DNA of 64,000 nucleotides from Naegleria gruberi (taxonomy: Eukaryota): the NCBI GenBank assembly GCA_000004985.1, contig GG738895.1; one strand, 5' to 3'. The position numbers and the translations under genes were made by a program. Below the pieces are notes generated by a model that had not been told where the DNA came from, ran no database searches, and worked only from the letters and a program-made list of their open reading frames with translations. This document shows, piece by piece, positions 2,578-47,114 of this stretch (positions are counted from its first letter, which is position 1; every line of letters begins with the position of its first letter).

Positions 2578-3448
2578 GTTTTAATTAGTTGTTCACGTAA
2601 TTTTCTATTACTAACATCGAGAAGTCATACCAGATGAGCAAGGCAATTTCCAGATTCAAATTGATTTCTTGATCACTGAATTGTCCTTCAAGGTAAGTTT
2701 GAAGAAAGCAAAGTGTGCAATTTCAAACAAATCTTAAAATATTTCTAGATGTATGGCTTTTGAAACCTGAATTATAATCGTTGTTTGTTTTTTTATGATA
2801 CAGTTGTACAGGAACCAAAACACAAATCGAAAAAAATGTTATATTTCAACTTTTAAATAATTCAGAATTGAAATAGATGAAGTTTCAATTTCGATTTGAT
2901 TAAGAAAATATCAAACCAAAATTTAGATCAAGCAATTCAACATGGCAAATGTTCAATAAATACGAGGTTGATCAACCGAATCAGTTTCTTCAAACAAAAC
3001 CTGAACCAACAAGATTCTGTCTTCGTTGCCTTCACTGTTCATACAGTCAAAGACTGTAGCGGGATTGTCGCCATATTCCTGGCAGGCTTCCCGTCTAATC
3101 TACCAATTGAAATATTACTTTGATTTGAACATCATTTCGTATGAAAAAATTATACAGACATTGATTAAGAAATAAAGTTAAAGTAAACTCACAATCAAAA
3201 CCCAATCTTTGCAATGAATCCTCGATCCATGGGAAGTCAGATTTTGTTCATTGGTGGGAGATTTGAAGAGGCAATTCAATATTGAACAATATTTTTAAGG
3301 AAAATGGGAGTGTCAAATCTTTGATTATTTTCTCGGTGGTTTTAAGATATGAAACTTTGAAAATTGCTATTTAGCTAGATTACATATCATTGCTCCAAGT
3401 GATGAAAAAAAGTAAAACTCAAATGTTGGAGATAGAGGCAAAATTAAT

Positions 3449-3519
3449 CTCGAGTGCCGGGAATTGAACCCGGGTCGCCAGAGTGACAGTCTGGAATGCT
3501 ACCACTATACCACACCCGA
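3449..3519 (-). tRNA. tRNA-Asp (anticodon GTC)
   Basis: Minus-strand sequence TCGGGTGTGGTATAGTGGTAGCATTCCAGACTGTCACTCTGGCGACCCGGGTTCAATTCCCGGCACTCGAG. The 7-bp acceptor stem pairs with one G-T wobble. The anticodon loop is CTGTCAC and the T-arm is GGTTCAATTCC. A T-run lies downstream on the minus strand (3440-3443). Confidence 0.85.
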
Positions 3520-3636
3520 TTACATTAGAAATCTTATGATCCCTTAACTCGCCTTAGTATAACGTCCTCACGGGCATTGGTTGATAAAGCATAACAATTA
3601 GATGTCAGGCAGAAAATTGTGGTTTATTCTAATGAG

Positions 3637-5322
3637 TTATTTCCAAGTCAATTTTTGATATTTAAGGGATAATTGTTCAATTCTCTGTTCTAACTGAGTG
3701 ATTTGTGACCAGTAGATGTATGGATTTGACTCTGGATTGTCAGTAATCCAATCTAACAAGCTTTGATACTCTAGCATACAAATGTCAAAAGCTGCTTTCT
3801 TATTTTCAGATTGTTCGATTAGAGATTCATGAGCTAACAACCATGCATATCTCAAATCTATATCAGAATTAGGTTCCTTAACATATGGTTCCATTCTTCT
3901 TATGGCCTCTTGTGCTTTTCCTGAGAGTCTTAGAGAATTGGCCATTACAATGATGCATTCCCTTAATTGGTATTCTGTCAAAACAAAGTTGACAGCCAAT
4001 AATTTTTCAATATTGAATAATGCAGTGCCATAATCTTCCAACAAGATGTGAACTTTTGCCTTATTGATCAAATTAACAATATTGTGTTGGGGAATTTTGC
4101 TGCCCTTTTCAGATAATTCTAAATATTTCTTCGATTCCTCAATGAATTCAACAAATTCGGAGCTCGAATTTCTAGTACTTTGAACAAGAGAAGCAGCATG
4201 CAACAACACACTACCTTTCAAAATAAAATAATCAGAAAAACAAAGTGGAAAGTTATCACTGTTCCTATTTCTCAGATTATCAAAAATTTCAGTAATTCTT
4301 TCGATATTCCTCTTGGTTTCCTCCATATTGTCGGGATACAAGTTATGGGTGCACTCTTTCAATATGAAACCTTTCGCATACACGTTGTTTTGGTCTAGCT
4401 CAATTGCCTTTTTGAGCAGAGTTTCGGCTTGTGTGTAATTACCTTCAACAATATCAATGACAGCCCTTACTAGTTCAATACATGAATTAATCTTGATATC
4501 CATTCCAGTCTCCAAATCAAACAGAGTATCATCCTTATTCAATAAACTCCATTCATTATGCTTTTGACAAATATTCTTCATGAGAATGGTCTCTTCCCTG
4601 CTTAATAGCTTCATTGCAAGTCCATAATTTGCAAAATAGAAAACTGATTCGAACAATTCTTTTTCCAAAGTCTCATCAACTGCATTATCAATTTCTTTCT
4701 TAAATTCAATAATTTCTAAATTCAATGAAACATATTCAGTCAAATATTTCTTTAACAAGTGACAAGAATAGAGATTGGAAGCATATTCTTTCAGAAGTGG
4801 ATTAGTTTTAAACGCATTAAATACATAATCAAACAACCATTCTTCATTATCTTTCAAAATATCACTTTTCAATTGTTTTTTAATCGTATCAATCAGGAAA
4901 CTTGGAATTCCATAAAAAATTCCCTCTTTTGTTTCCTTATTTTTAATTAATAATGATAAAAATTCATCTGTTGCATTGTTAGTTTGTTTTCCTTTCACAA
5001 TATTTTCAATTTCCAATTTGATTTGTTTTTTGTAATCTAATAAAGACTTGGTTGACTTGAACGGATTTTCATTTTGATTGAATTCTTGTCCAATTAAACC
5101 TCCATTAATTTGCTTGTCTTTGATATTTTCTAAACCACCCGAACAAATACGAAACCTATTTTCCAACTCCAACTTATTCGAATCTTCATTTCTATGAAAA
5201 AGTGCAATGTGAAATTGCTCATTGTAACATCCCAGTTTTGCCAATGCTACAAAATAGTTAACTCGTGTTGATTGCACTTTAAATAAGTTTCGTCTCTGAA
5301 GGAGCGTTCTTCTAATGAACAT
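3637..5322 (-). CDS. Hypothetical helical-repeat (TPR/PPR-like) protein with a mitochondrial-presequence-like N-terminus
   Basis: 561-aa uninterrupted ORF starting at ATG 5322 in an AAAAATG context. The N-terminus MFIRRTLLQRRNLFKVQSTR is basic and hydroxylated. The rest is rich in amphipathic helices. No family assigned. Confidence 0.55.
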   Translation of the reverse strand: MFIRRTLLQRRNLFKVQSTRVNYFVALAKLGCYNEQFHIALFHRNEDSNKLELENRFRICSGGLENIKDKQINGGLIGQEFNQNENPFKSTKSLLDYKKQIKLEIENIVKGKQTNNATDEFLSLLIKNKETKEGIFYGIPSFLIDTIKKQLKSDILKDNEEWLFDYVFNAFKTNPLLKEYASNLYSCHLLKKYLTEYVSLNLEIIEFKKEIDNAVDETLEKELFESVFYFANYGLAMKLLSREETILMKNICQKHNEWSLLNKDDTLFDLETGMDIKINSCIELVRAVIDIVEGNYTQAETLLKKAIELDQNNVYAKGFILKECTHNLYPDNMEETKRNIERITEIFDNLRNRNSDNFPLCFSDYFILKGSVLLHAASLVQSTRNSSSEFVEFIEESKKYLELSEKGSKIPQHNIVNLINKAKVHILLEDYGTALFNIEKLLAVNFVLTEYQLRECIIVMANSLRLSGKAQEAIRRMEPYVKEPNSDIDLRYAWLLAHESLIEQSENKKAAFDICMLEYQSLLDWITDNPESNPYIYWSQITQLEQRIEQLSLKYQKLTWK

Positions 5323-38009: not shown

Positions 38010-40016
38010 ATGTTCTCAAGAGCCTCATCTTCCGCTCGCTCGCTCTTCCAAAGATCAAGCTTGTTTTTCAAAGAAAACAATGCTGGTAAGAATTTCGAAA
38101 AAGTGACAAAGAGATTCAAGTCAAGTGGTGAAAGAGAGAAATATTTCAACGAATATGGTACCAGACCAGAATATTTACAAAACAAGAGAAAGACTTCATT
38201 CATGCCTCTCTTCTTCCTTGCCGGATTCGTGCCATTGGTTTTAACGCCTATGGTTATCGATTGGTGGATTAGAAGTGATCGTCAAAATGGTGATGAAAAC
38301 TTGAAGGAATATTTGCAACAAAAGGCTGTGAAGGAAGAAATTAAAAAGGACAAAACCAATCATCATGAGGACGTTACTGTTGCTTCAGCAAAGAAGCCAG
38401 AAGTTAGTAAATACAGTATGTAGAGAAACAACATAAACAAGGTTAGGGATAACCAAGGAACTTATAAATTTTGAAATTTAATTGAATTTTCTATAATAAT
38501 AATAATAATAGAATATGTATTAATTGGTGGTGGAACAGCATCATATGCTGGTAAGTTTAGTTTTAAATTACAATAGATTTATTAACAATTAAAAGCTTTG
38601 AAGGCTATCAGAAAGAACGACCCATCAGCCAACGTTCTTATTGTTACAGTTGAGGAATATGCTCCTTATGAACGTCCACCTCTCTCAAAGGAACTCTGGG
38701 ATTCACCAAAGAGTGAGGAATTAAAGTTTGTTAATTGGCTCGGTCAAGAAACCTCAGTTGAATATGAACCTGTTTCTGCTTATGAGAAGGACGAAAATAT
38801 TACCCTCCTTACCAAGACTAAAGTAGTTCAATTGGATACTCATAACCAAACTATTTTGGCCTCTAACGGAAAGCATTATACTTATGAAAAGTGTCTCATT
38901 GCTACAGGAGGTACTCCAAGGTATGTAATTATTTCCTAAATTTCAATAATTAATTTTCATTAGAGAATTGCCAGGTAGTGACCAATTCCCAGACAAGGTA
39001 ACCACTTTCAGAACCATTTCTGACTATAAGAAGTTGGCTGAAGTAGCCAATAAGGATAATGCTCATGTAAGTTGTTGTTTCATTTTTTTTGTTGAAATTT
39101 TTGGAAACCATGTAGATTCTCATCGGTAAGTTAATTAGTAAGGATTTATTTAAATGATAACAATCATCTAGTCGGTGGTAGTTTCTTGGGTACTGAATTG
39201 AGTTATGCTGTTGCTAACAAGGTTAACAAGAAGAAGGGTTCAAAGGTCACCCAAGTTTATCTTGAACCTGATGTTTTGGCTCGTTGGCTTCCAAGATACC
39301 TCAGTGAACGTGTTAGACAAACACTCATCTCTGCTGGTGTCAATTTGAAGCCAAATACCAATGTTGTCAGTGTTGAACCAAGTAAGGGATCTGATAGAGT
39401 CATTGTTTCTTTGGATAATGGTGAAAAATTGGAAGCTGACTTTGTTGTAACTACTACTGGTATCTATCCAAATACCTATGTTGCCGAAGAAGCTGGTTTG
39501 GAAATTGATCCACAAAACAGTGGTATTGTTACCAACTCTCAATTGGAAGCTGTTCAAAACGTCTTTGTTGCTGGTGATGTATTGAGCTACTATGATGTTG
39601 TTTTGGGTAGAAGAAGATCTGAACACCACGAACATGCTGAAGCAACTGGTAGACATGCTGGTACTAACATGTCTACTAGTGCCAAGAAGCCATTCCACTA
39701 CATTAGTATGTTCTGGAGTGATGTTGGTAATGTCCACTTCCAAGCTGTTGGTGAAGTTAACTCATCTCTCGACACTTATGCTGTTTGGAATGATGTTGTT
39801 ATCAAGCAAAATGGTAGCTCATGGACTACTTCTGCTTCTCCAGTTGTTGCCTCAAACTTTGGTAGTGGTGCTGTTTACTATGTCAGAGACAAGAAGGTTG
39901 TTGGTATCTTGTTGTGGAATCTTCCAGATAAATTGGGTCACGCTCGTAAGGTTATTTTGGAAAAGAAGCAATATACCTCATTGGAAGAATTGAAGGATAA
40001 GATTAAGCTTAATTAA
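38010..40016 (+). CDS. Apoptosis-inducing factor (AIFM1-type FAD/NAD oxidoreductase), 6 exons including a 10-nt micro-exon, 575 aa
   Basis: Proposed structure is join(38010..38415,38512..38550,38596..38920,38964..39066,39116..39125,39172..40016). Introns are 96, 45, 43, 49 and 46 nt (GTATGT or GTAAGT donors). Lengths sum to 1728, which is 3 x 576. The protein aligns along its whole length with human AIFM1. Shared blocks: YVLIGGGTASYAALKAIRKNDP, ERPPLSKELW, YEKCLIATGGTPR, ILIVGGSFLGTEL and LGRRRSEHHEHAEATGRHAG. Confidence 0.85.
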
Positions 40017-40111: not shown

Positions 40112-42852
40112 ATGACTTCACCGTTTAGGGGTTCTCCTTTCCTCTCTTATAACAATAAGCAGAGGGGTGGTTTATCTCCAAACTCTGTGAATATCAACAA
40201 GAAAAACCCATCATCCTCTCCGATCTCATTAAAATCCTTCTACAATATAAAGCTTAAAAAACAACAAGAACCTTTTTCGCCAACAACAACAGCATCAAGT
40301 GATGAGGAGGAATATGATAGTCCAGAAAAGAAGAGAGAAATGGCCCAGGATTTATTACGAAGATCTCACCTTCGTCAAAAGAAAAAGATTAAGGAAAAAT
40401 TGGAAATCTACGTTGACAAGGATATTAGGCTATTGAGGGAAGAATCTGAGAAGCTTTCGGAAGAACGGTTCAAAGCTGTTTCCAACCAAGAACAGGATCA
40501 TGTTGACTTTGTGAAGAAAATGTTTGGTGATTTGGAAAAGGTTTATTATGAGAGGAGTCAGCGAAAAATGAGATTACTGAACCGATTAGTCTATTTGAAA
40601 GGTAAGAAATCTTTGCAATACTTGAAAATTTAATTCTTTAAGCCAAACAAATGATTAATAAGATTGCATTTGAAAGTAATATTGAGGAGAATATCATTTC
40701 AACTGATGAAATTACAGATATTGCCCATCAAAAAACAAGAGCATGGATGACAAATATTGTAGAGGATAATATTCAATCTCTGAAGGGGGATTTTATCTAT
40801 AAGTTCGAGGAATTTACAAGAATCACTCCTGAGGAGGAAATCAAGGAATTGAAGGAATCAATCTTTAAATACGTATCTCCAGTGGTAGAGAAGAAAAAGA
40901 GAGATAGTAGCATTGCAAGAAAAACACACTACCAATCTATTAAGGCATGCAAAGAAAGAGTTCTTAATGCTTTTACTAGAAATATTAAGAATAAGTTTGA
41001 GAAGAATTTTGAAGACAAGTACAATGAAAAAGTTCAGCAAATTAGTCTAGGAAAGGAAGCAGTGCAGTTAACACCTGATGAAATTATCGAATTTTTGGAA
41101 GCTGATGTTGAAGATTATGAAACTGATATTGGTGTAATTGATGCTGAAATAGATAGAATCAACAATGAAATTACTGAATGGAGGGAAAAGATTGAAATGA
41201 AGAGGGAGTATCACGAAAAACAAAAAGCTGCAATTCAAAGTCAAATTGATTATGTTTCCCAATCAAATCAAGATCTACTCAATAGTATCACAAAGCTGAA
41301 GAAACAACAACAAGCTGTTAAACTGGCAGATACAAAGTTTGTCGAATCAGTTGGTGGAACATTGTTATCAGAATTAATTGAAAAGACACATAGAATTCTC
41401 AAAAGCGATGTACCTAGACTTAAGAACATGTCATCAACCATTGAAGATGAAATTTTATCTTTGGAAAGAGTAATCATAGAAAAAGAAAACGAGGCCAATT
41501 CACTTTCTGAAAAGATGAAGTCTGAAGAAGAGTCAATGAATAATCTCTCCAAGAGACTCAGCATTCTGGGAGTTAGATTGTACCAACATGAGAAAAATAT
41601 CAAGGTACTGGAAGAGAATAAGATTAGTGCCCAAAACGAATGTGAAAAGATTAGATCCCAATTAGAAACTCTAAGAAAAACGGCTCCCAATAGACAACTT
41701 CGTTCGATGGCAAGTAATCATGCATATGAAGAAATGGCTAAATCAATAGAAACCAATTGTACAATATTTTCTCAGGACTTGACAAAACACAAGGAAAATA
41801 ATGAAATGATTATTGAATTTTTGAAAGAGAGAAGAACCAGACTCCAAGAATTGTGTGAATATAACCAACAAAAGATAAGGAAATTGATCAAATATTCTGG
41901 TTCCTTACATAGTATTTGCTCTCCTCATGTAACTCTTGAGCATTCAATTGTAACCATTTACCAAGAGGAACTCGAAAAAGCGTTCAATAACTACAAGAGT
42001 ACAATACAGTCTATCGCAAAGGAATCTGTGAGAAATGCAAACGTGGCAAAATATTTTAATGAAAGAGCCAAGGGAGGATGTGTTGTTTACAAATTCTCGA
42101 ATTACATGTTTGAAAACGACTTGTTAAGGTATGAAATGGGTGTTGATAACCCTAAAATTGAAAAATCAGAAATTGAGGCCTCAATTCAAAAGCAGTTTGT
42201 AAAAGATTCAAGATTGGTTTTATTACTAAACTTTTTACTTGAAATAACAGGTCTCAGCCAAGAATACATTATTCCAGACGGTCTAACTCCAAGTTATTCT
42301 TCACTGTTAGATATGATCCGTAACAAGAATTTCCATGATCATAATGGTATTTCAGTATGTGATTCAGCCAAATCAAAGAATGAGACCTCATTCCTGGATA
42401 ACAAAATATATGGAGAAATTAACACTATCTTCATTAACGCAATTGAAAATCAAACAGTTGTTGATAAGCATGATATAATGAACAGAATTGACCAATTACA
42501 AGAATTAGTATGTAAAAAAGAAGGTGTAAATATGGATGAATTGGAGCAGAAACTTCAAAAGAAACTTGTATTGGTTCAGAGGGAAAAAGAGAGGGCAGCT
42601 GGATTGCAGAAAGAGCTTGAAAGGATTGAAAAGAAAAACCTGGAAACATCCAATACTACTGAAAGGGAAGTAAGAATCAGAGTGAACAGTTTACCTTTGC
42701 CATCTACAGATACCGTGATATATTTTGATGAGGAAACCAATAAGATAGTGGCTGAAGAAAGACAAACTAGAAAGAGAAATTCCTCCTTTTCCCCACGTAG
42801 TTTGATTTCTAAAATTGAAAGTGCCAAGTCAAACTCTCAAAATCAAAATTAG
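40112..42852 (+). CDS. Hypothetical long coiled-coil protein (about 899 aa); 2 exons
   Basis: Proposed structure is join(40112..40601,40643..42852). ORF 40112..40633 ends 9 codons after a GTAAGA donor. A 41-nt intron (..TTCTTTAAG) joins it in frame to ORF 40651..42852. Heptad-rich Glu/Lys/Leu sequence throughout. Confidence 0.55.
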
Positions 42853-44710: not shown

Positions 44711-45983
44711 ATGCCATCATCAGATCAATCACTATCTTTATTTCCATCTTCATCTGTTTTACTTTCCAAAGCCTTCTCGATTACAAATTCTATTCGGAAT
44801 GGAATGACGATCCAAGCAGAGGAACCAAAGAGTTTGAATTTGTATGGATTTTTCTCTGCTGCTGTTGGTTTATCAAAAAGTGCCAAGGCTGCTGCCATGC
44901 AAGAAATATTTACAAAACAATCTGTTTATCCTAATATTGCTCATAGTGATCAAGTTTTTGAAAAAAGTGCAGGAGAAGATTCATATTTCCAAACATCACT
45001 TGCTTTTGGTGTAGGTTTTTATTTTGATTTAAACTTGAATTGATTTTTAGGTTGGTGACGGAGTTGGTATGTAATTTTGGATGTCATTTAAATTATATCT
45101 ATTGTATTTAGGTGGTTGGGTTAAATATAATGTTGATCCTTCCTTAATTAGTAGATCTATAACTACAGATTTATTGAAATATTTCCAAGAAAAGGAAAAA
45201 TCAATTATTGATGTTTTGAAAAATAGTAATAATGAAACTACTAATGAATCATCAGGTTGGTCTTCTTGGTGGGGAAAATCAGCTAGTACTTTTGTAATTA
45301 AGGAATCACCAGTTGAAATTCTTAGTAGAGCATATTATGGAATTAAAGCTAGTGGACAAATTAGAGCAGGTAGTACAACATTCTCAATGGTTATGCTTTC
45401 AGATATGGACAAAGGTATTGCTAAATCACTGAATATTGGTGATAGTGGCTTTGTAATTATTAGAAATGGAGGTATCATCTACAGATCTAAGCCTCAGCAA
45501 CATAGATTTAACGCTCCATATCAACTTACCATATGTCCTCCAGAAAGAAATGGAACCTGTATTCAAAATGAACCAAAAGATGGTGACTTGGTTGAACATC
45601 AATTAGCAGATGGTGATATTATTGTAATGGGAACTGATGGATTGTTTGACAATTTATTTGATTGGCAAATTCTTCAAATAATTAATCAAGGACAAGCAGG
45701 TATTGAACCATTTTCTGAAATTTTGAAAAAGGCAGCAACAGGTGATAAGGAAAGTATATTACGTGTAAATCAACAACTTCATAACAGAGCTCGAGAGATT
45801 GCCAAACTTGCCAGAATTGTTTCTATATCAGATAGTAACTTTACCTTTACTCCATTCTCCAAAGCTTACACTGAGGAAACTGGACGACACATTTCTGGAG
45901 GTAAGAAAGATGACATTACAGTCATTGTAGCAGCCTTGTTGAAGAGAAAGATTTTCGTTGATTCATTCAGTAAAAATCAATAA
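44711..45983 (+). CDS. PP2C-type protein phosphatase, PPTC7-like; 3 exons including a 16-nt micro-exon, 395 aa
   Basis: Proposed structure is join(44711..45010,45051..45066,45112..45983). Introns are 40 nt (GTAGGT..TTTTTAG) and 45 nt (GTATGT..TATTTAG). The micro-exon GTTGGTGACGGAGTTG restores the PP2C motif 1 as ..AFGVGDGVGGWVKY. Downstream motifs LNIGDSGFVIIRNGG, QQHRFNAPYQL and DGDIIVMGTDGLFDNL are PPTC7-like. Lengths sum to 1188, which is 3 x 396. Confidence 0.75.
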
Positions 45984-46054
45984 GTCTTGTAAACACAATA
46001 ATCTAAATGGTTTTATATCTAAATTTACAATAATAATATCATACATATTTACAA

Positions 46055-46798
46055 TTATTTTTCTGCAATATTTAAAGTGATTTGCTTTTCAGCCAAGTTT
46101 GCTAGAGTCAGTGTCATACTAGCATGTTCCTCAATTGAAAATCTTCTGGCAGGGAAAGTTGTCACAATTACATAATTTTCCATATCCATATCCTTAGTGA
46201 CTTCTAAATAATCAAAAATATCACCAATGGTATCAGAATATCTAAATCTTCTCGTTAATCTTGTTGAATCAGGTAATCTTATTAAAACTTTAGCAATAGA
46301 TGATTCAGTTTCACCTGGTTCTTGTTTCAAATTGGATGCTTTTTGTCTTCTTAATCTTAATTTTTCTTCCTCTCTTCGTTGTCTTTCCTCCTCCTCTCTT
46401 TGTCTTTGTCTTTCCTCTTCACGTTGTCGTTGTCTTTCCAATTCCTCTTGTCGTTGTCTTTCTTGGTCCAATCTGAGAGATCGATTATAAGCTTCATCCT
46501 GCTCATCTCTCAATGAAGTAACAACTGGAGAATTTCCTCCCAAGTCAACCATTGTTCCTCCAGTACGTGTTGATGTGTTTCTACTAGCAGCAGTCGAGGA
46601 TGACAAATTTCTGAGTGATGCCTCATATTCTTGTCGTTGTAGCAACTGAGCAAACTCCTCATCAGTCATTCCATCATGTGCCAATTCGTGATTCTCCTGC
46701 ATAGATGTCATATCCTCATCACCAGGACTTTGTCTAGCATTAAAATCATTAGCTGCTAATCCGTGATGTTCCATCTCTTCATCAGATTCTACCATCAT
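46055..46798 (-). CDS. UBX-domain protein with a central Arg/Glu-rich coiled coil (UBXN1/FAF-like)
   Basis: The track ORF starts at GTG 46855. The first in-frame ATG is 46798 (MMVESDEE...). Features: an ERQRQREEERQRQREEEERQRREEE coiled coil, and a C-terminal UBX fold (IRLPDSTRLTRRFRYSDTIGDIFDYL...FPARRF). An upstream 5' exon is possible. Confidence 0.65.
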   Translation of the reverse strand: MMVESDEEMEHHGLAANDFNARQSPGDEDMTSMQENHELAHDGMTDEEFAQLLQRQEYEASLRNLSSSTAASRNTSTRTGGTMVDLGGNSPVVTSLRDEQDEAYNRSLRLDQERQRQEELERQRQREEERQRQREEEERQRREEEKLRLRRQKASNLKQEPGETESSIAKVLIRLPDSTRLTRRFRYSDTIGDIFDYLEVTKDMDMENYVIVTTFPARRFSIEEHASMTLTLANLAEKQITLNIAEK

Positions 46799-47114
46799 TG
46801 TATGATTATTGCCATCACTACTTGTGTTATGATTTTTCCAAATCGCTTTCCTCACTAAACTTCCGAAGATGATATCAATTTTGTATAATATTTAATCGAT
46901 TATATCCAATTTAATTCAATTAGCACAAATTGTTATTATAATGATAGATTAATTGTATTGTTGGTTATTTAAATATCAATCATTCATCACGTTCAACTGT
47001 TATTAATCACTAACCTTCATCAAAACATCCAAAAGCGTTGAATAGACAGGAAAACATTTTTTATAATTAGAAAATAGAAAATAATTGGATGATGTCTTGA
47101 CAAGAAGAGATTGT

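What the first reader, a model, noticed from the sequence alone, without database searches (positions are those of the whole stretch)
44711..45983. PPTC7-like phosphatase gene has a 16-nt micro-exon (45051..45066) that encodes its catalytic motif
The micro-exon GTTGGTGACGGAGTTG lies between a 40-nt and a 45-nt intron. It encodes V-G-D-G-V, which is the core of the PP2C motif 1 GxxDGxGG, here reconstructed as AFGVGDGVGGW. Without it, neither flanking exon carries the metal-binding aspartate. This is a second micro-exon in the same window, so tiny exons may be a genome-wide trait in this organism.
Basis: seen in the sequence. Interest (0 to 1): 0.6.

Follow-up and report, generated by a model that had tools for sequence, protein, structure and literature searches.

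The report
Conserved 16-nt exon in Naegleria phosphatase
A Naegleria gruberi gene for a PPTC7/PTC7-type PP2C phosphatase really does carry a 16-base exon that supplies a catalytic aspartate and keeps the reading frame, a conserved but ordinary micro-exon that the reference protein set seems to lack.

Summary
The window is Naegleria gruberi NEG-M.

**Gene model**
- Exon 1: 44711-45010.
- Intron: 40 nt, GT..AG.
- Micro-exon: 45051-45066, GTTGGTGACGGAGTTG.
- Intron: 45 nt, GT..AG.
- Exon 3: 45112-45983.
- The spliced product is a clean 395-aa PTC7/PPTC7-like PP2C phosphatase.

**Evidence for the micro-exon**
- It encodes VGDGV of ...AFGVGDGVGGW... Read-through or exact skipping gives stop codons.
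- Of 97 frame-preserving GT..AG models here, this one scores best against a profile of distant homologues (251.6 vs 235.4 bits).
- The same 16-nt exon, at the same phases, is present in N. lovaniensis, where GenBank already annotates it, and in two other Naegleria-like contigs.
- Across those loci the intron lengths differ (35-70 nt) and the intron sequences have diverged (about 56% identity, against 93% for the exon).
- Willaertia has only the downstream intron, so an upstream intron gain or loss defines the tiny exon.

**Context and limits**
- A second micro-exon (10 nt, AIF-like gene, 39116-39125) lies in the window and is already in the reference annotation.
- No transcript data could be checked.
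- The N. gruberi protein was not found in the protein collection, so it appears unannotated.

**Verdict:** real, a new member of a known kind, modest interest.

The parts
44711..45010 (+). Exon 1 (300 nt, 100 codons, ends in phase 0). It holds the N-terminal region and the first PPM motif (..SAGEDSYF..), and ends ..SLAFG.
   Evidence: Aligns without gaps to N. lovaniensis and Willaertia proteins.
45011..45050 (+). Intron 1, 40 nt, GTAGGT...TTTTAG, phase 0. Present in four Naegleria-clade loci (35-70 nt) and absent in Willaertia.
   Evidence: Its length is typical of the ORF-bridging short introns in this window, which are mostly 39-68 nt.
45051..45066 (+). Micro-exon, 16 nt, GTTGGTGACGGAGTTG. 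It encodes V101 G102 D103 G104 V105 plus the first base of G106. D103 is the aspartate of the DGxGG metal-binding motif.
   Evidence: Mean identity among the four Naegleria loci is 93%. D103 and G104 are nearly invariant in 45 homologues.
45067..45111 (+). Intron 2, 45 nt, GTATGT...ATTTAG, phase 1 (it splits a Gly codon as G|GT). The position is shared with Willaertia, where the intron is 187 nt.
45112..45983 (+). Exon 3 (872 nt including the TAA stop). It holds the rest of the PP2C domain: ..GGWVKYNVDPS.., GDSG, TDGLFDN, KKDDITV.

Best explanation
The window comes from Naegleria gruberi. Positions 44711-45983 (+) hold a three-exon gene for a PTC7/PPTC7-type PP2C (PPM) protein phosphatase. Its middle exon is an obligatory 16-nt coding micro-exon.

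Shown:
- The exon supplies VGDGV of the DGxGG motif, including D103. Because 16 is not a multiple of 3, it also carries the reading frame from exon 1 (phase 0) into exon 3 (phase 1).
- Leaving it out by exact skipping gives a stop codon 11 codons later. Leaving the introns in also gives stops.
- The exon and both of its boundaries are conserved in three other Naegleria-clade genomes, while the flanking introns vary in length and sequence.
- The downstream intron is shared with Willaertia and the upstream one is not. The tiny exon was therefore created, or is kept, by an intron gain or loss 16 nt upstream of an older intron.

Inferred:
- Both flanking introns belong to the ordinary short-intron class of this genome (about 40-70 nt, with GTAAGT, GTATGT or GTAGGT donors). 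Each is probably recognised as a unit across the intron (intron definition) and the two are removed one after the other, so exon length is not limiting.
- Mis-splicing that skips the exon would give a frameshifted, prematurely terminated and non-functional message.
- The protein is probably an active Mn/Mg-dependent Ser/Thr phosphatase, possibly mitochondrial like PTC7/PPTC7.
For: - **Sequence and frames:**
- **Organism:** 7 of 9 window ORFs match N. gruberi NEG-M proteins exactly.
- **Chance:** the micro-exon pattern is unique in the window, with 0 matches in 100 shuffles.
- **Model ranking:** there are 11 single-intron and 85 double-intron frame-preserving models, plus one ORF. A profile built only from distant homologues, with no Naegleria or Willaertia sequences, ranks the proposed model first at 251.6 bits. 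The next best scores 235.4 bits and lacks GDGV.
- **Orthologues:** N. lovaniensis (60% identity) and Willaertia (52%) have the ungapped motif.
- **N. lovaniensis model:** the GenBank protein equals L001 exons 3001-3471, 3536-3551 and 3610-4505, so it includes the orthologous 16-nt exon.
- **Other loci:** L003 and L004 give clean 402-aa and 478-aa ORFs with the same structure. Intron pairs are 40/45, 64/58, 35/37 and 70/66 nt. Mean identity is 93% for the micro-exon, 72-74% for flanking exon sequence and 56-57% for the introns.
- **Skipping:** exact skipping gives a stop 11 codons downstream in all four species.
- **Window introns:** other probable introns are 39-68 nt (one of 96 nt), with donors GTAAGT, GTATGT, GTAGGT, GTGAGT or GTGGGT.
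- **Precedent in the same genome:** a 10-nt exon in the same window is part of the reference N. gruberi AIF-like protein EFC40023.1.
- **Family:** a profile of the homologues hits the PP2C structure 6ae9 at 5.6e-65 and many other PPM structures. Of 45 homologues, 37 match Pfam SpoIIE and 33 match Pfam PP2C.
- **Catalytic role:** the D and G of DGHGG are conserved catalytic-core residues (PMC10925823). Human PPTC7 D78A is catalytically dead (PMC11239977).
Against: - No transcript, EST or junction read could be examined, so splicing itself is inferred from frames, homology and conservation.
- The exact 395-aa protein and four alternative models are absent from the 15-billion-protein collection. 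No N. gruberi protein appears among the homologue hits. There is therefore no independent N. gruberi model to compare with.
- The single protein falls just below Pfam's curated cut-offs: SpoIIE 21.6 vs 25 bits, and PP2C_2 18.3 vs 24 bits.
- Two in-frame alternatives that skip the exon exist: donors at 45009 (GTGTAG) and 45015 (GTTTTT), both joining to acceptor 45111.
- The donor of intron 1 (GTAGGT) is a minority type in the window.
- The splicing order and the intron-definition mechanism are general knowledge, not tested here.
- The mapping of human D78 onto this motif rests on my memory of the human sequence.
Confidence: 0.88

Rival explanations
1. The gene has a single longer intron (45015-45111, 97 nt, or 45009-45111, 103 nt) that removes the 16 nt together with both short introns. 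The frame stays open, and the product is an aspartate-less pseudo-phosphatase (...SLAFGVGGWVKY... or ...SLAFGGWVKY...).
For: Both models are frame-preserving and stop-free. They still score 235.4 and 224.9 bits against the family profile.
Against: - Their donors (GTTTTT, GTGTAG) match none of the roughly 17 probable window introns.
- They score 16-27 bits below the micro-exon model.
- They delete D103 and G104, which are at least 90% conserved in 45 homologues.
- The 16 nt they would discard are 93% conserved across four species, while the rest of the 'intron' is about 56% conserved.
- Equivalent in-frame skipping donors are not positionally conserved in the orthologues.
- The deposited N. lovaniensis model uses the micro-exon.
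Confidence: 0.03
2. The micro-exon is real but alternatively included. Skipping it acts as an off-switch, giving a frameshifted message with a premature stop that is degraded by NMD. That would let the cell tune phosphatase levels, for example during amoeba-flagellate differentiation.
For: Exact skipping gives a premature stop 11 codons downstream in all four species. Exon skipping and intron retention have both been detected in N. gruberi transcriptomes (PMC6142364).
Against: Nothing here points to regulation.
- Both introns look like ordinary short introns.
- There is no significant RNA structure around the exon (z = -1.16).
- Most small micro-exons in plants are reported as conserved rather than regulated switches (PMC8831610).

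This rival cannot be tested without expression data.
Confidence: 0.07
3. The locus is a decaying or unexpressed pseudogene, or the short 'introns' are assembly artefacts. That would explain why no N. gruberi protein for it is found.
For: No N. gruberi protein for this locus is in the collection.
Against: - The spliced ORF is intact over 395 codons and keeps every conserved catalytic motif.
- The same structure is found in three independent assemblies of related species.
- Coding sequence is conserved well above intron sequence.
- Micro-exon genes are commonly missed by annotation pipelines (PMC8831610).
Confidence: 0.02

Closest known systems
Constitutive coding micro-exons that gene annotation often misses (plants: Yu et al. 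2022, PMC8831610)
   Same: - A tiny internal coding exon flanked by canonical GT-AG introns.
- Its length is not a multiple of 3, so omission causes a frameshift.
- It is conserved across species.
- It appears to be missed in one reference annotation (N. gruberi) although it is essential for a correct protein.
   Different: - The organism is a heterolobosean protist whose introns are very short (35-70 nt), not a plant.
- At 16 nt it is just above that paper's <=15-nt class.
- The orthologue in N. lovaniensis is correctly annotated.
- No RNA-seq support was checked here.
The 10-nt micro-exon of the N. gruberi AIF-like gene (EFC40023.1) in the same window, 39116-39125
   Same: - Same genome.
- The flanking introns are of the same class (49 and 46 nt, GTAAGT donors).
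- Its length is also not a multiple of 3.
- It also lies at a strand plus Gly-rich-loop motif (ILIV|GGSFLG).
   Different: It is already in the reference annotation. The gene family and motif differ (Rossmann GxGxxG rather than PP2C DGxGG).
Animal neuronal micro-exons (nSR100/SRRM4, RBFOX or PRP-40 dependent)
   Same: Very short exons that challenge simultaneous assembly of the splicing machinery at both splice sites (PMC8378409, PMC8831610).
   Different: The animal exons are mostly multiples of 3 and alternatively spliced. They are regulated in a tissue-specific way, lie within long introns and depend on exon-definition enhancers. Here the exon shifts the frame, so it is presumably constitutive, and it lies between very short introns.
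PTC7/PPTC7 subfamily of PP2C (PPM) phosphatases (yeast Ptc7, human PPTC7, plant PP2C55 and the solved PP2C 6ae9)
   Same: - The domain order and motifs match: GED, GVxDGVGGW, GDSG, TDGLFDN, GGKxDDIT.
- The best named hits are PTC7 proteins.
- The family profile hits 6ae9 at 5.6e-65.
   Different: - There is a Naegleria-specific N-terminal extension and an insertion (residues about 130-165).
- The single sequence is below Pfam's gathering cut-offs.
- Localisation and substrates are unknown.
- In Trichoplax the motif lies in one exon, and the Ipomoea gene is intronless.

Membership tests
Coding micro-exon | Internal exon of at most about 30 nt bounded by canonical AG and GT splice sites | tested here: met
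   The exon is 16 nt (45051-45066), preceded by TTTTAG and followed by GTATGT.
Coding micro-exon | Inclusion is required for an open reading frame and a correct protein | tested here: met
   Read-through and exact skipping both give stops. Of 97 frame-preserving models, only this one restores the ungapped motif, and it scores best.
Coding micro-exon | The exon and its boundaries are conserved in related species while the introns diverge | tested here: met
   The exon is present in N. lovaniensis (L001), L003 and L004 at the same phases. Identity is 93% for the exon against about 56% for the introns. The deposited N. lovaniensis model uses it.
Coding micro-exon | Transcript evidence (junction reads or cDNA) for both splice junctions | not testable with these tools
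   The exact spliced protein is not in the collection and no close relatives were found in JGI metagenome contigs. N. gruberi RNA-seq exists (PRJEB23822, cited in PMC6142364) but cannot be read here.
PP2C/PPM phosphatase, PTC7/PPTC7 subfamily | The four catalytic-core motifs are present: RxxxxD (ED), DGxGG, DGLxD and DN/DD | tested here: met
   The protein has GED (88-90), D103-G104-V-G-G, D281-G282-L-F-D285-N286 and D372-D373. These columns are invariant or at least 90% conserved in 45 homologues. The motif list comes from PMC10925823.
PP2C/PPM phosphatase, PTC7/PPTC7 subfamily | Pfam PP2C, PP2C_2 or SpoIIE score above the curated gathering cut-off | tested here: not met
   SpoIIE scores 21.6 bits against a cut-off of 25, and PP2C_2 scores 18.3 against 24. 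However, 37, 33 and 28 of 45 homologues match SpoIIE, PP2C and PP2C_2 at E <= 0.001.
PP2C/PPM phosphatase, PTC7/PPTC7 subfamily | Significant homology to solved PP2C structures across the whole domain | tested here: met
   The single sequence hits 6ae9 at E = 2.5e-22. The family profile hits 6ae9 at 5.6e-65 over positions 32-294, plus PPM1H, bacterial PP2Cs, PPM1A and others.
PP2C/PPM phosphatase, PTC7/PPTC7 subfamily | Closest named relatives are PTC7/PPTC7 rather than other PP2C clades | tested here: met
   Named hits are 'protein phosphatase PTC7' (JGI) and plant 'PP2C 55'. No tree was built.
PP2C/PPM phosphatase, PTC7/PPTC7 subfamily | Metal-dependent Ser/Thr phosphatase activity and mitochondrial localisation | not testable with these tools
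   This needs biochemistry and cell biology.

The most novel reading that the evidence does not exclude
Naegleria genomes may carry an unusually high density of obligatory, frame-shifting micro-exons of 16 nt or less. These would arise when a new short intron is gained a few bases from an older one, preferentially at GGT-rich codons of Gly-rich metal- or cofactor-binding loops (DGxGG, GxGxxG). They would be spliced purely by intron definition. If so, a systematic class of essential genes is missing or mis-modelled in heterolobosean annotations, and Naegleria would be a simple model for how a spliceosome handles exons shorter than its own footprint.
Probability: 0.15. Interest if true: 0.45.

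Novelty: new member of a known kind. Interest (0 to 1): 0.2.

Why it matters
**Practical value.** The result adds what looks like a missing essential-type gene, a PTC7/PPTC7 phosphatase, to the N. gruberi gene set. It also shows concretely how a 16-nt exon can defeat a gene caller.
- Prokaryote-style gene calls on the related contigs also lose the catalytic motif.
- On L003 and L004 those calls start after the micro-exon.

**Conceptual value.** This is a clean example of a tiny exon that has been stable through Naegleria divergence, and it is apparently bounded by introns of different age. Together with the 10-nt exon 6 kb upstream, it suggests that a genome-wide micro-exon census in Heterolobosea would be worthwhile.

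It does not reveal a new kind of element or mechanism.

Tried and rejected
- **Reference gene models at the locus.** Three neighbouring N. gruberi proteins were looked up with the look-up of encoding contigs. Only short ENA contigs or nothing came back, so the N. gruberi NCBI scaffold is not in that index. Whether a reference model exists at 44711-45983 could only be inferred indirectly.
- **Exact look-up of alternative models.** Four were tried: 391 aa, 389 aa, the 300-aa ORF from ATG 45081, and the 110-aa exon-1 ORF. None is in the collection.
- **Scan of JGI metagenome contigs.** It was run to find more Naegleria loci or spliced metatranscripts. It returned only distant relatives, with no full-length match above 36% identity.
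- **Structure prediction.** It was not pursued with the orthologue because the profile-to-PDB hit was already decisive.
- **RNA folding around the exon.** No significant structure was found, z = -1.16.
- **Literature.** Searches for Naegleria with microexon or micro-exon found nothing relevant. The 2010 N. gruberi genome paper is not held. The Naegleria pangenome paper gives no intron or exon size statistics.
- **First heuristic micro-exon scan.** It proposed 12-nt exons at 38539-38550 and 39055-39066. Both are artefacts of acceptor choice. The real exons there are 39 nt (38512-38550) and 103 nt (38964-39066), as the exact match to EFC40023.1 shows.
- **Ancient intron positions.** They were considered and rejected on limited sampling. 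In Trichoplax the motif lies in one exon, and the Ipomoea gene is intronless.

Full report
**What is in the sequence**

The + strand has an ATG at 44711. An open frame of 100 codons follows and ends ...S L A F G at 45010. If read on, it stops after 10 more codons (AFGVGFYFDLNLN*).

A second long open frame, in another phase, begins inside 45081-45112 and runs to TAA at 45981-45983. Between them lies GTAGGT...TTTTAG (45011-45050, 40 nt). Next comes GTTGGTGACGGAGTTG (45051-45066), and then GTATGT...ATTTAG (45067-45111, 45 nt).

Joining 44711-45010, 45051-45066 and 45112-45983 gives 1188 nt, which is 395 codons plus a stop with no internal stop. The junction reads ...SLAFG|VGDGV|GGWVKYNVDPS... 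Skipping the 16 nt exactly gives ...AFGVVGLNIMLILP*.

**Is it more than chance?**

The degenerate pattern for V-G-D-G-V-G (GTNGGNGAYGGNGTNG) occurs once on the two strands of the window, at 45051. None of 100 dinucleotide-preserving shuffles contains it.

I enumerated every GT..AG combination between 44950 and 45200 with introns of at least 18 nt. Eleven one-intron and 85 two-intron models keep the frame open. I then built an HMM only from distant homologues, excluding the query and the Naegleria and Willaertia sequences to avoid circularity.

- The proposed model ranks first of 97 at 251.6 bits.
- The runner-up scores 235.4 bits. It is one intron, 45015-45111, with donor GTTTTT, and it lacks GDGV.

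**Organism and neighbours**

Seven of nine long ORFs of the window are exact matches to Naegleria gruberi NEG-M proteins on a 333,733-bp scaffold. Probable introns elsewhere in the window were found as short GT..AG segments that bridge long open frames.

- These introns are 39-68 nt, apart from one of 96 nt.
- Their donors are GTAAGT (most), GTATGT, GTAGGT, GTGAGT or GTGGGT.

The 40-nt and 45-nt introns are therefore ordinary for this genome.

**What the gene encodes**

The best hits are a Naegleria lovaniensis protein (60% identity, 98% coverage) and a Willaertia magna protein (52%). Below them come many proteins named protein phosphatase PTC7 or plant PP2C 55.

- The single sequence hits the solved PP2C 6ae9 at 2.5e-22. 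That alignment covers the motif: query ..sagedsyfqt...slafgvgdgvggwvkynvdpslisr.. against chain ..tggedaffvngddggvfavadgvsgwaekdvnpalfsr...
- A profile of 45 homologues hits 6ae9 at 5.6e-65 over the whole domain, and also dozens of other PPM structures.
- Against Pfam, the single protein is just under the curated cut-offs: SpoIIE 21.6 vs 25 bits and PP2C_2 18.3 vs 24.
- However, 37, 33 and 28 of the 45 homologues match SpoIIE, PP2C and PP2C_2.

In the alignment, D103 and G104 (both encoded by the micro-exon) are conserved in at least 90% of sequences. So are D216, D281, G282, D285, N286, D372 and D373.

[quoted passage not shown] The micro-exon therefore carries the D, the G and the next residue of the second motif. 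Exon 1 carries the first motif (GED), and exon 3 carries the other two.

Human PPTC7 D78A is used as the catalytically dead mutant (PMC11239977). That D78 is the D of GVADGVGGW rests on my recollection of the human sequence and was not tested here.

**Comparative evidence for the exon**

I fetched the genomic loci of the four closest proteins. The 16-nt segment is found in all of them.

| Locus | Micro-exon | Intron 1 (nt) | Intron 2 (nt) |
|---|---|---|---|
| N. gruberi (window) | GTTGGTGACGGAGTTG | 40 | 45 |
| N. lovaniensis (L001) | GTTGGTGACGGTGTTG | 64 | 58 |
| L003 (ENA metagenome contig) | GTTGGTGATGGAGTTG | 35 | 37 |
| L004 (Logan assembly) | GTTGGTGACGGTGTTG | 70 | 66 |

- Splicing the three L001 exons reproduces the deposited N. 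lovaniensis GenBank protein exactly. The orthologous micro-exon is thus already in a public annotation.
- The L004 product is 82% identical to the N. lovaniensis protein.
- L003 and L004 give clean 402-aa and 478-aa ORFs with the same structure.
- Mean pairwise identity among the four loci is 93% for the micro-exon. It is 72-74% for the adjacent 60 nt of each flanking exon and 56-57% for the introns.
- Exact skipping gives a stop 11 codons downstream in all four. The in-frame skipping alternatives that exist by chance are not positionally conserved.
- In Willaertia (L002), exon 1 runs straight through ...GGA GTT GGA GAT GGT GTT G and is followed by one 187-nt intron at the same phase-1 position. 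The downstream intron therefore predates the Naegleria-Willaertia split. The upstream intron was either gained in the Naegleria lineage or lost in Willaertia.
- In Trichoplax the motif lies within one exon, and the Ipomoea homologue is intronless. On this thin sampling, neither intron position looks ancient.

**How it most likely works**

It is shown that the exon is needed for both the frame and the catalytic motif, and that selection has held it and its boundaries fixed.

It is inferred that each of the two short introns is recognised across the intron (intron definition), so the length of the exon between them does not matter. The two introns are probably removed sequentially, because a 16-nt exon is too short for the machinery to sit on both of its splice sites at once. 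That constraint, and delayed splicing of micro-exon-flanking introns, are described for plants in PMC8831610.

No special RNA structure surrounds the exon (z = -1.16). Skipped products would be frameshifted and presumably degraded.

**The second micro-exon and the 'genome-wide trait'**

A strict scan required both donors to be GTA[ATG]GT, introns of 30-100 nt, an exon of at most 30 nt and flanks of at least 25 open codons. It finds exactly two sites in the window: this one, and a 10-nt exon ATTCTCATCG at 39116-39125.

The second site belongs to an AIF-like gene at 38010-40016, with exons of 406, 39, 325, 103, 10 and 845 nt. Its spliced 575-aa product is an exact match to N. gruberi EFC40023.1. 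The reference annotation therefore already contains exons this small.

All three tiny exons in the window encode a strand or Gly-rich loop motif: the two micro-exons plus the 39-nt exon that encodes KYVLIGGGTASYA. That is an anecdote, not a statistic. The genome-wide claim remains untested.

**Annotation status**

The exact 395-aa protein and four plausible alternative models are absent from the 15-billion-protein collection, which does hold the neighbouring N. gruberi proteins. No N. gruberi sequence appears among the homologue hits either.

I infer that the gene is missing or badly mis-modelled in the reference proteome. I could not view the GenBank feature table, so this is an inference.

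**Verdict**

The observation and the interpretation hold. Constitutive, frame-shifting, conserved micro-exons that gene callers miss are a known kind, already described in plants, and micro-exons are also known in animals. The same genome already has an annotated 10-nt exon, and the orthologous exon is annotated in N. lovaniensis.

The finding is a real, well-supported new member of a known kind. It is useful for annotation and as a lead for a micro-exon census in Heterolobosea, but it is not surprising to a specialist. Transcript confirmation is still outstanding.

Noticed in passing
window 38010-40016 (+); micro-exon 39116-39125; 39-nt exon 38512-38550: An AIF-like ('programmed cell death 8-like') gene has six exons of 406, 39, 325, 103, 10 and 845 nt. 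The 10-nt exon ATTCTCATCG lies between 49-nt and 46-nt introns. The 39-nt exon encodes the FAD-binding KYVLIGGGTASYA. The spliced 575-aa product matches N. gruberi EFC40023.1 / D2VT53 exactly.
   Followed up: yes
window 44711-45983: The PTC7-like protein appears to be absent from the N. gruberi reference proteome. The exact protein, four alternative models and any N. gruberi homologue are all missing from the collection, which does hold the neighbouring genes. Accession order suggests EFC40025 may be the + strand model nearest this locus, but this could not be checked.
   Followed up: partly
window 45051-45066, 39116-39125, 38512-38550: All three very small exons in the window encode a beta-strand or Gly-rich loop of a metal- or nucleotide-binding motif: DGxGG once and GxGxxG twice. 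The GGT-rich codons there may favour splice-site creation. With only three cases this may be coincidence.
   Followed up: no
L002 3325-3527 (Willaertia magna) compared with window 45011-45111: Willaertia lacks the upstream intron but keeps the downstream one at the same phase, at 187 nt instead of 45. The micro-exon is therefore bounded by one older intron and one that is Naegleria-specific or was lost in Willaertia.
   Followed up: partly
window 45009-45111 and 45015-45111: Two cryptic in-frame alternatives (donors GTGTAG and GTTTTT) would skip the micro-exon and give an aspartate-less protein. A gene predictor could choose them.
   Followed up: yes
L003 1750-2160 and 2209-3030; L004 554-997 and 1200-1973: Prokaryote-style gene calls on the related Naegleria contigs split the gene into two ORFs and start the second one after the micro-exon. 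Database fragments P0003 and P0004 therefore lack the catalytic DGxGG motif.
   Followed up: yes
L005, L006 (ENA ERZ929261, PRJEB11402 metagenome): Contigs from an environmental metagenome encode proteins identical to N. gruberi NEG-M proteins of this window. N. gruberi, or a near-identical strain, is present in that sample.
   Followed up: no
window 45984-46855 compared with L001, L003, L004: In the three related loci a thiolase gene follows the phosphatase gene and precedes a UBX-domain gene. In the N. gruberi window the apparent UBX-like gene (46055-46855, minus strand) follows directly, with no thiolase between them. This is a local synteny difference. The UBX assignment of the window gene was made by eye.
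   Followed up: no
window 40651-42852 (+): The translation of this 733-aa ATG ORF (coiled-coil-like) is not an exact match to any protein in the collection, unlike most neighbouring ORFs. The reference presumably models it differently, either split or with introns.
   Followed up: no
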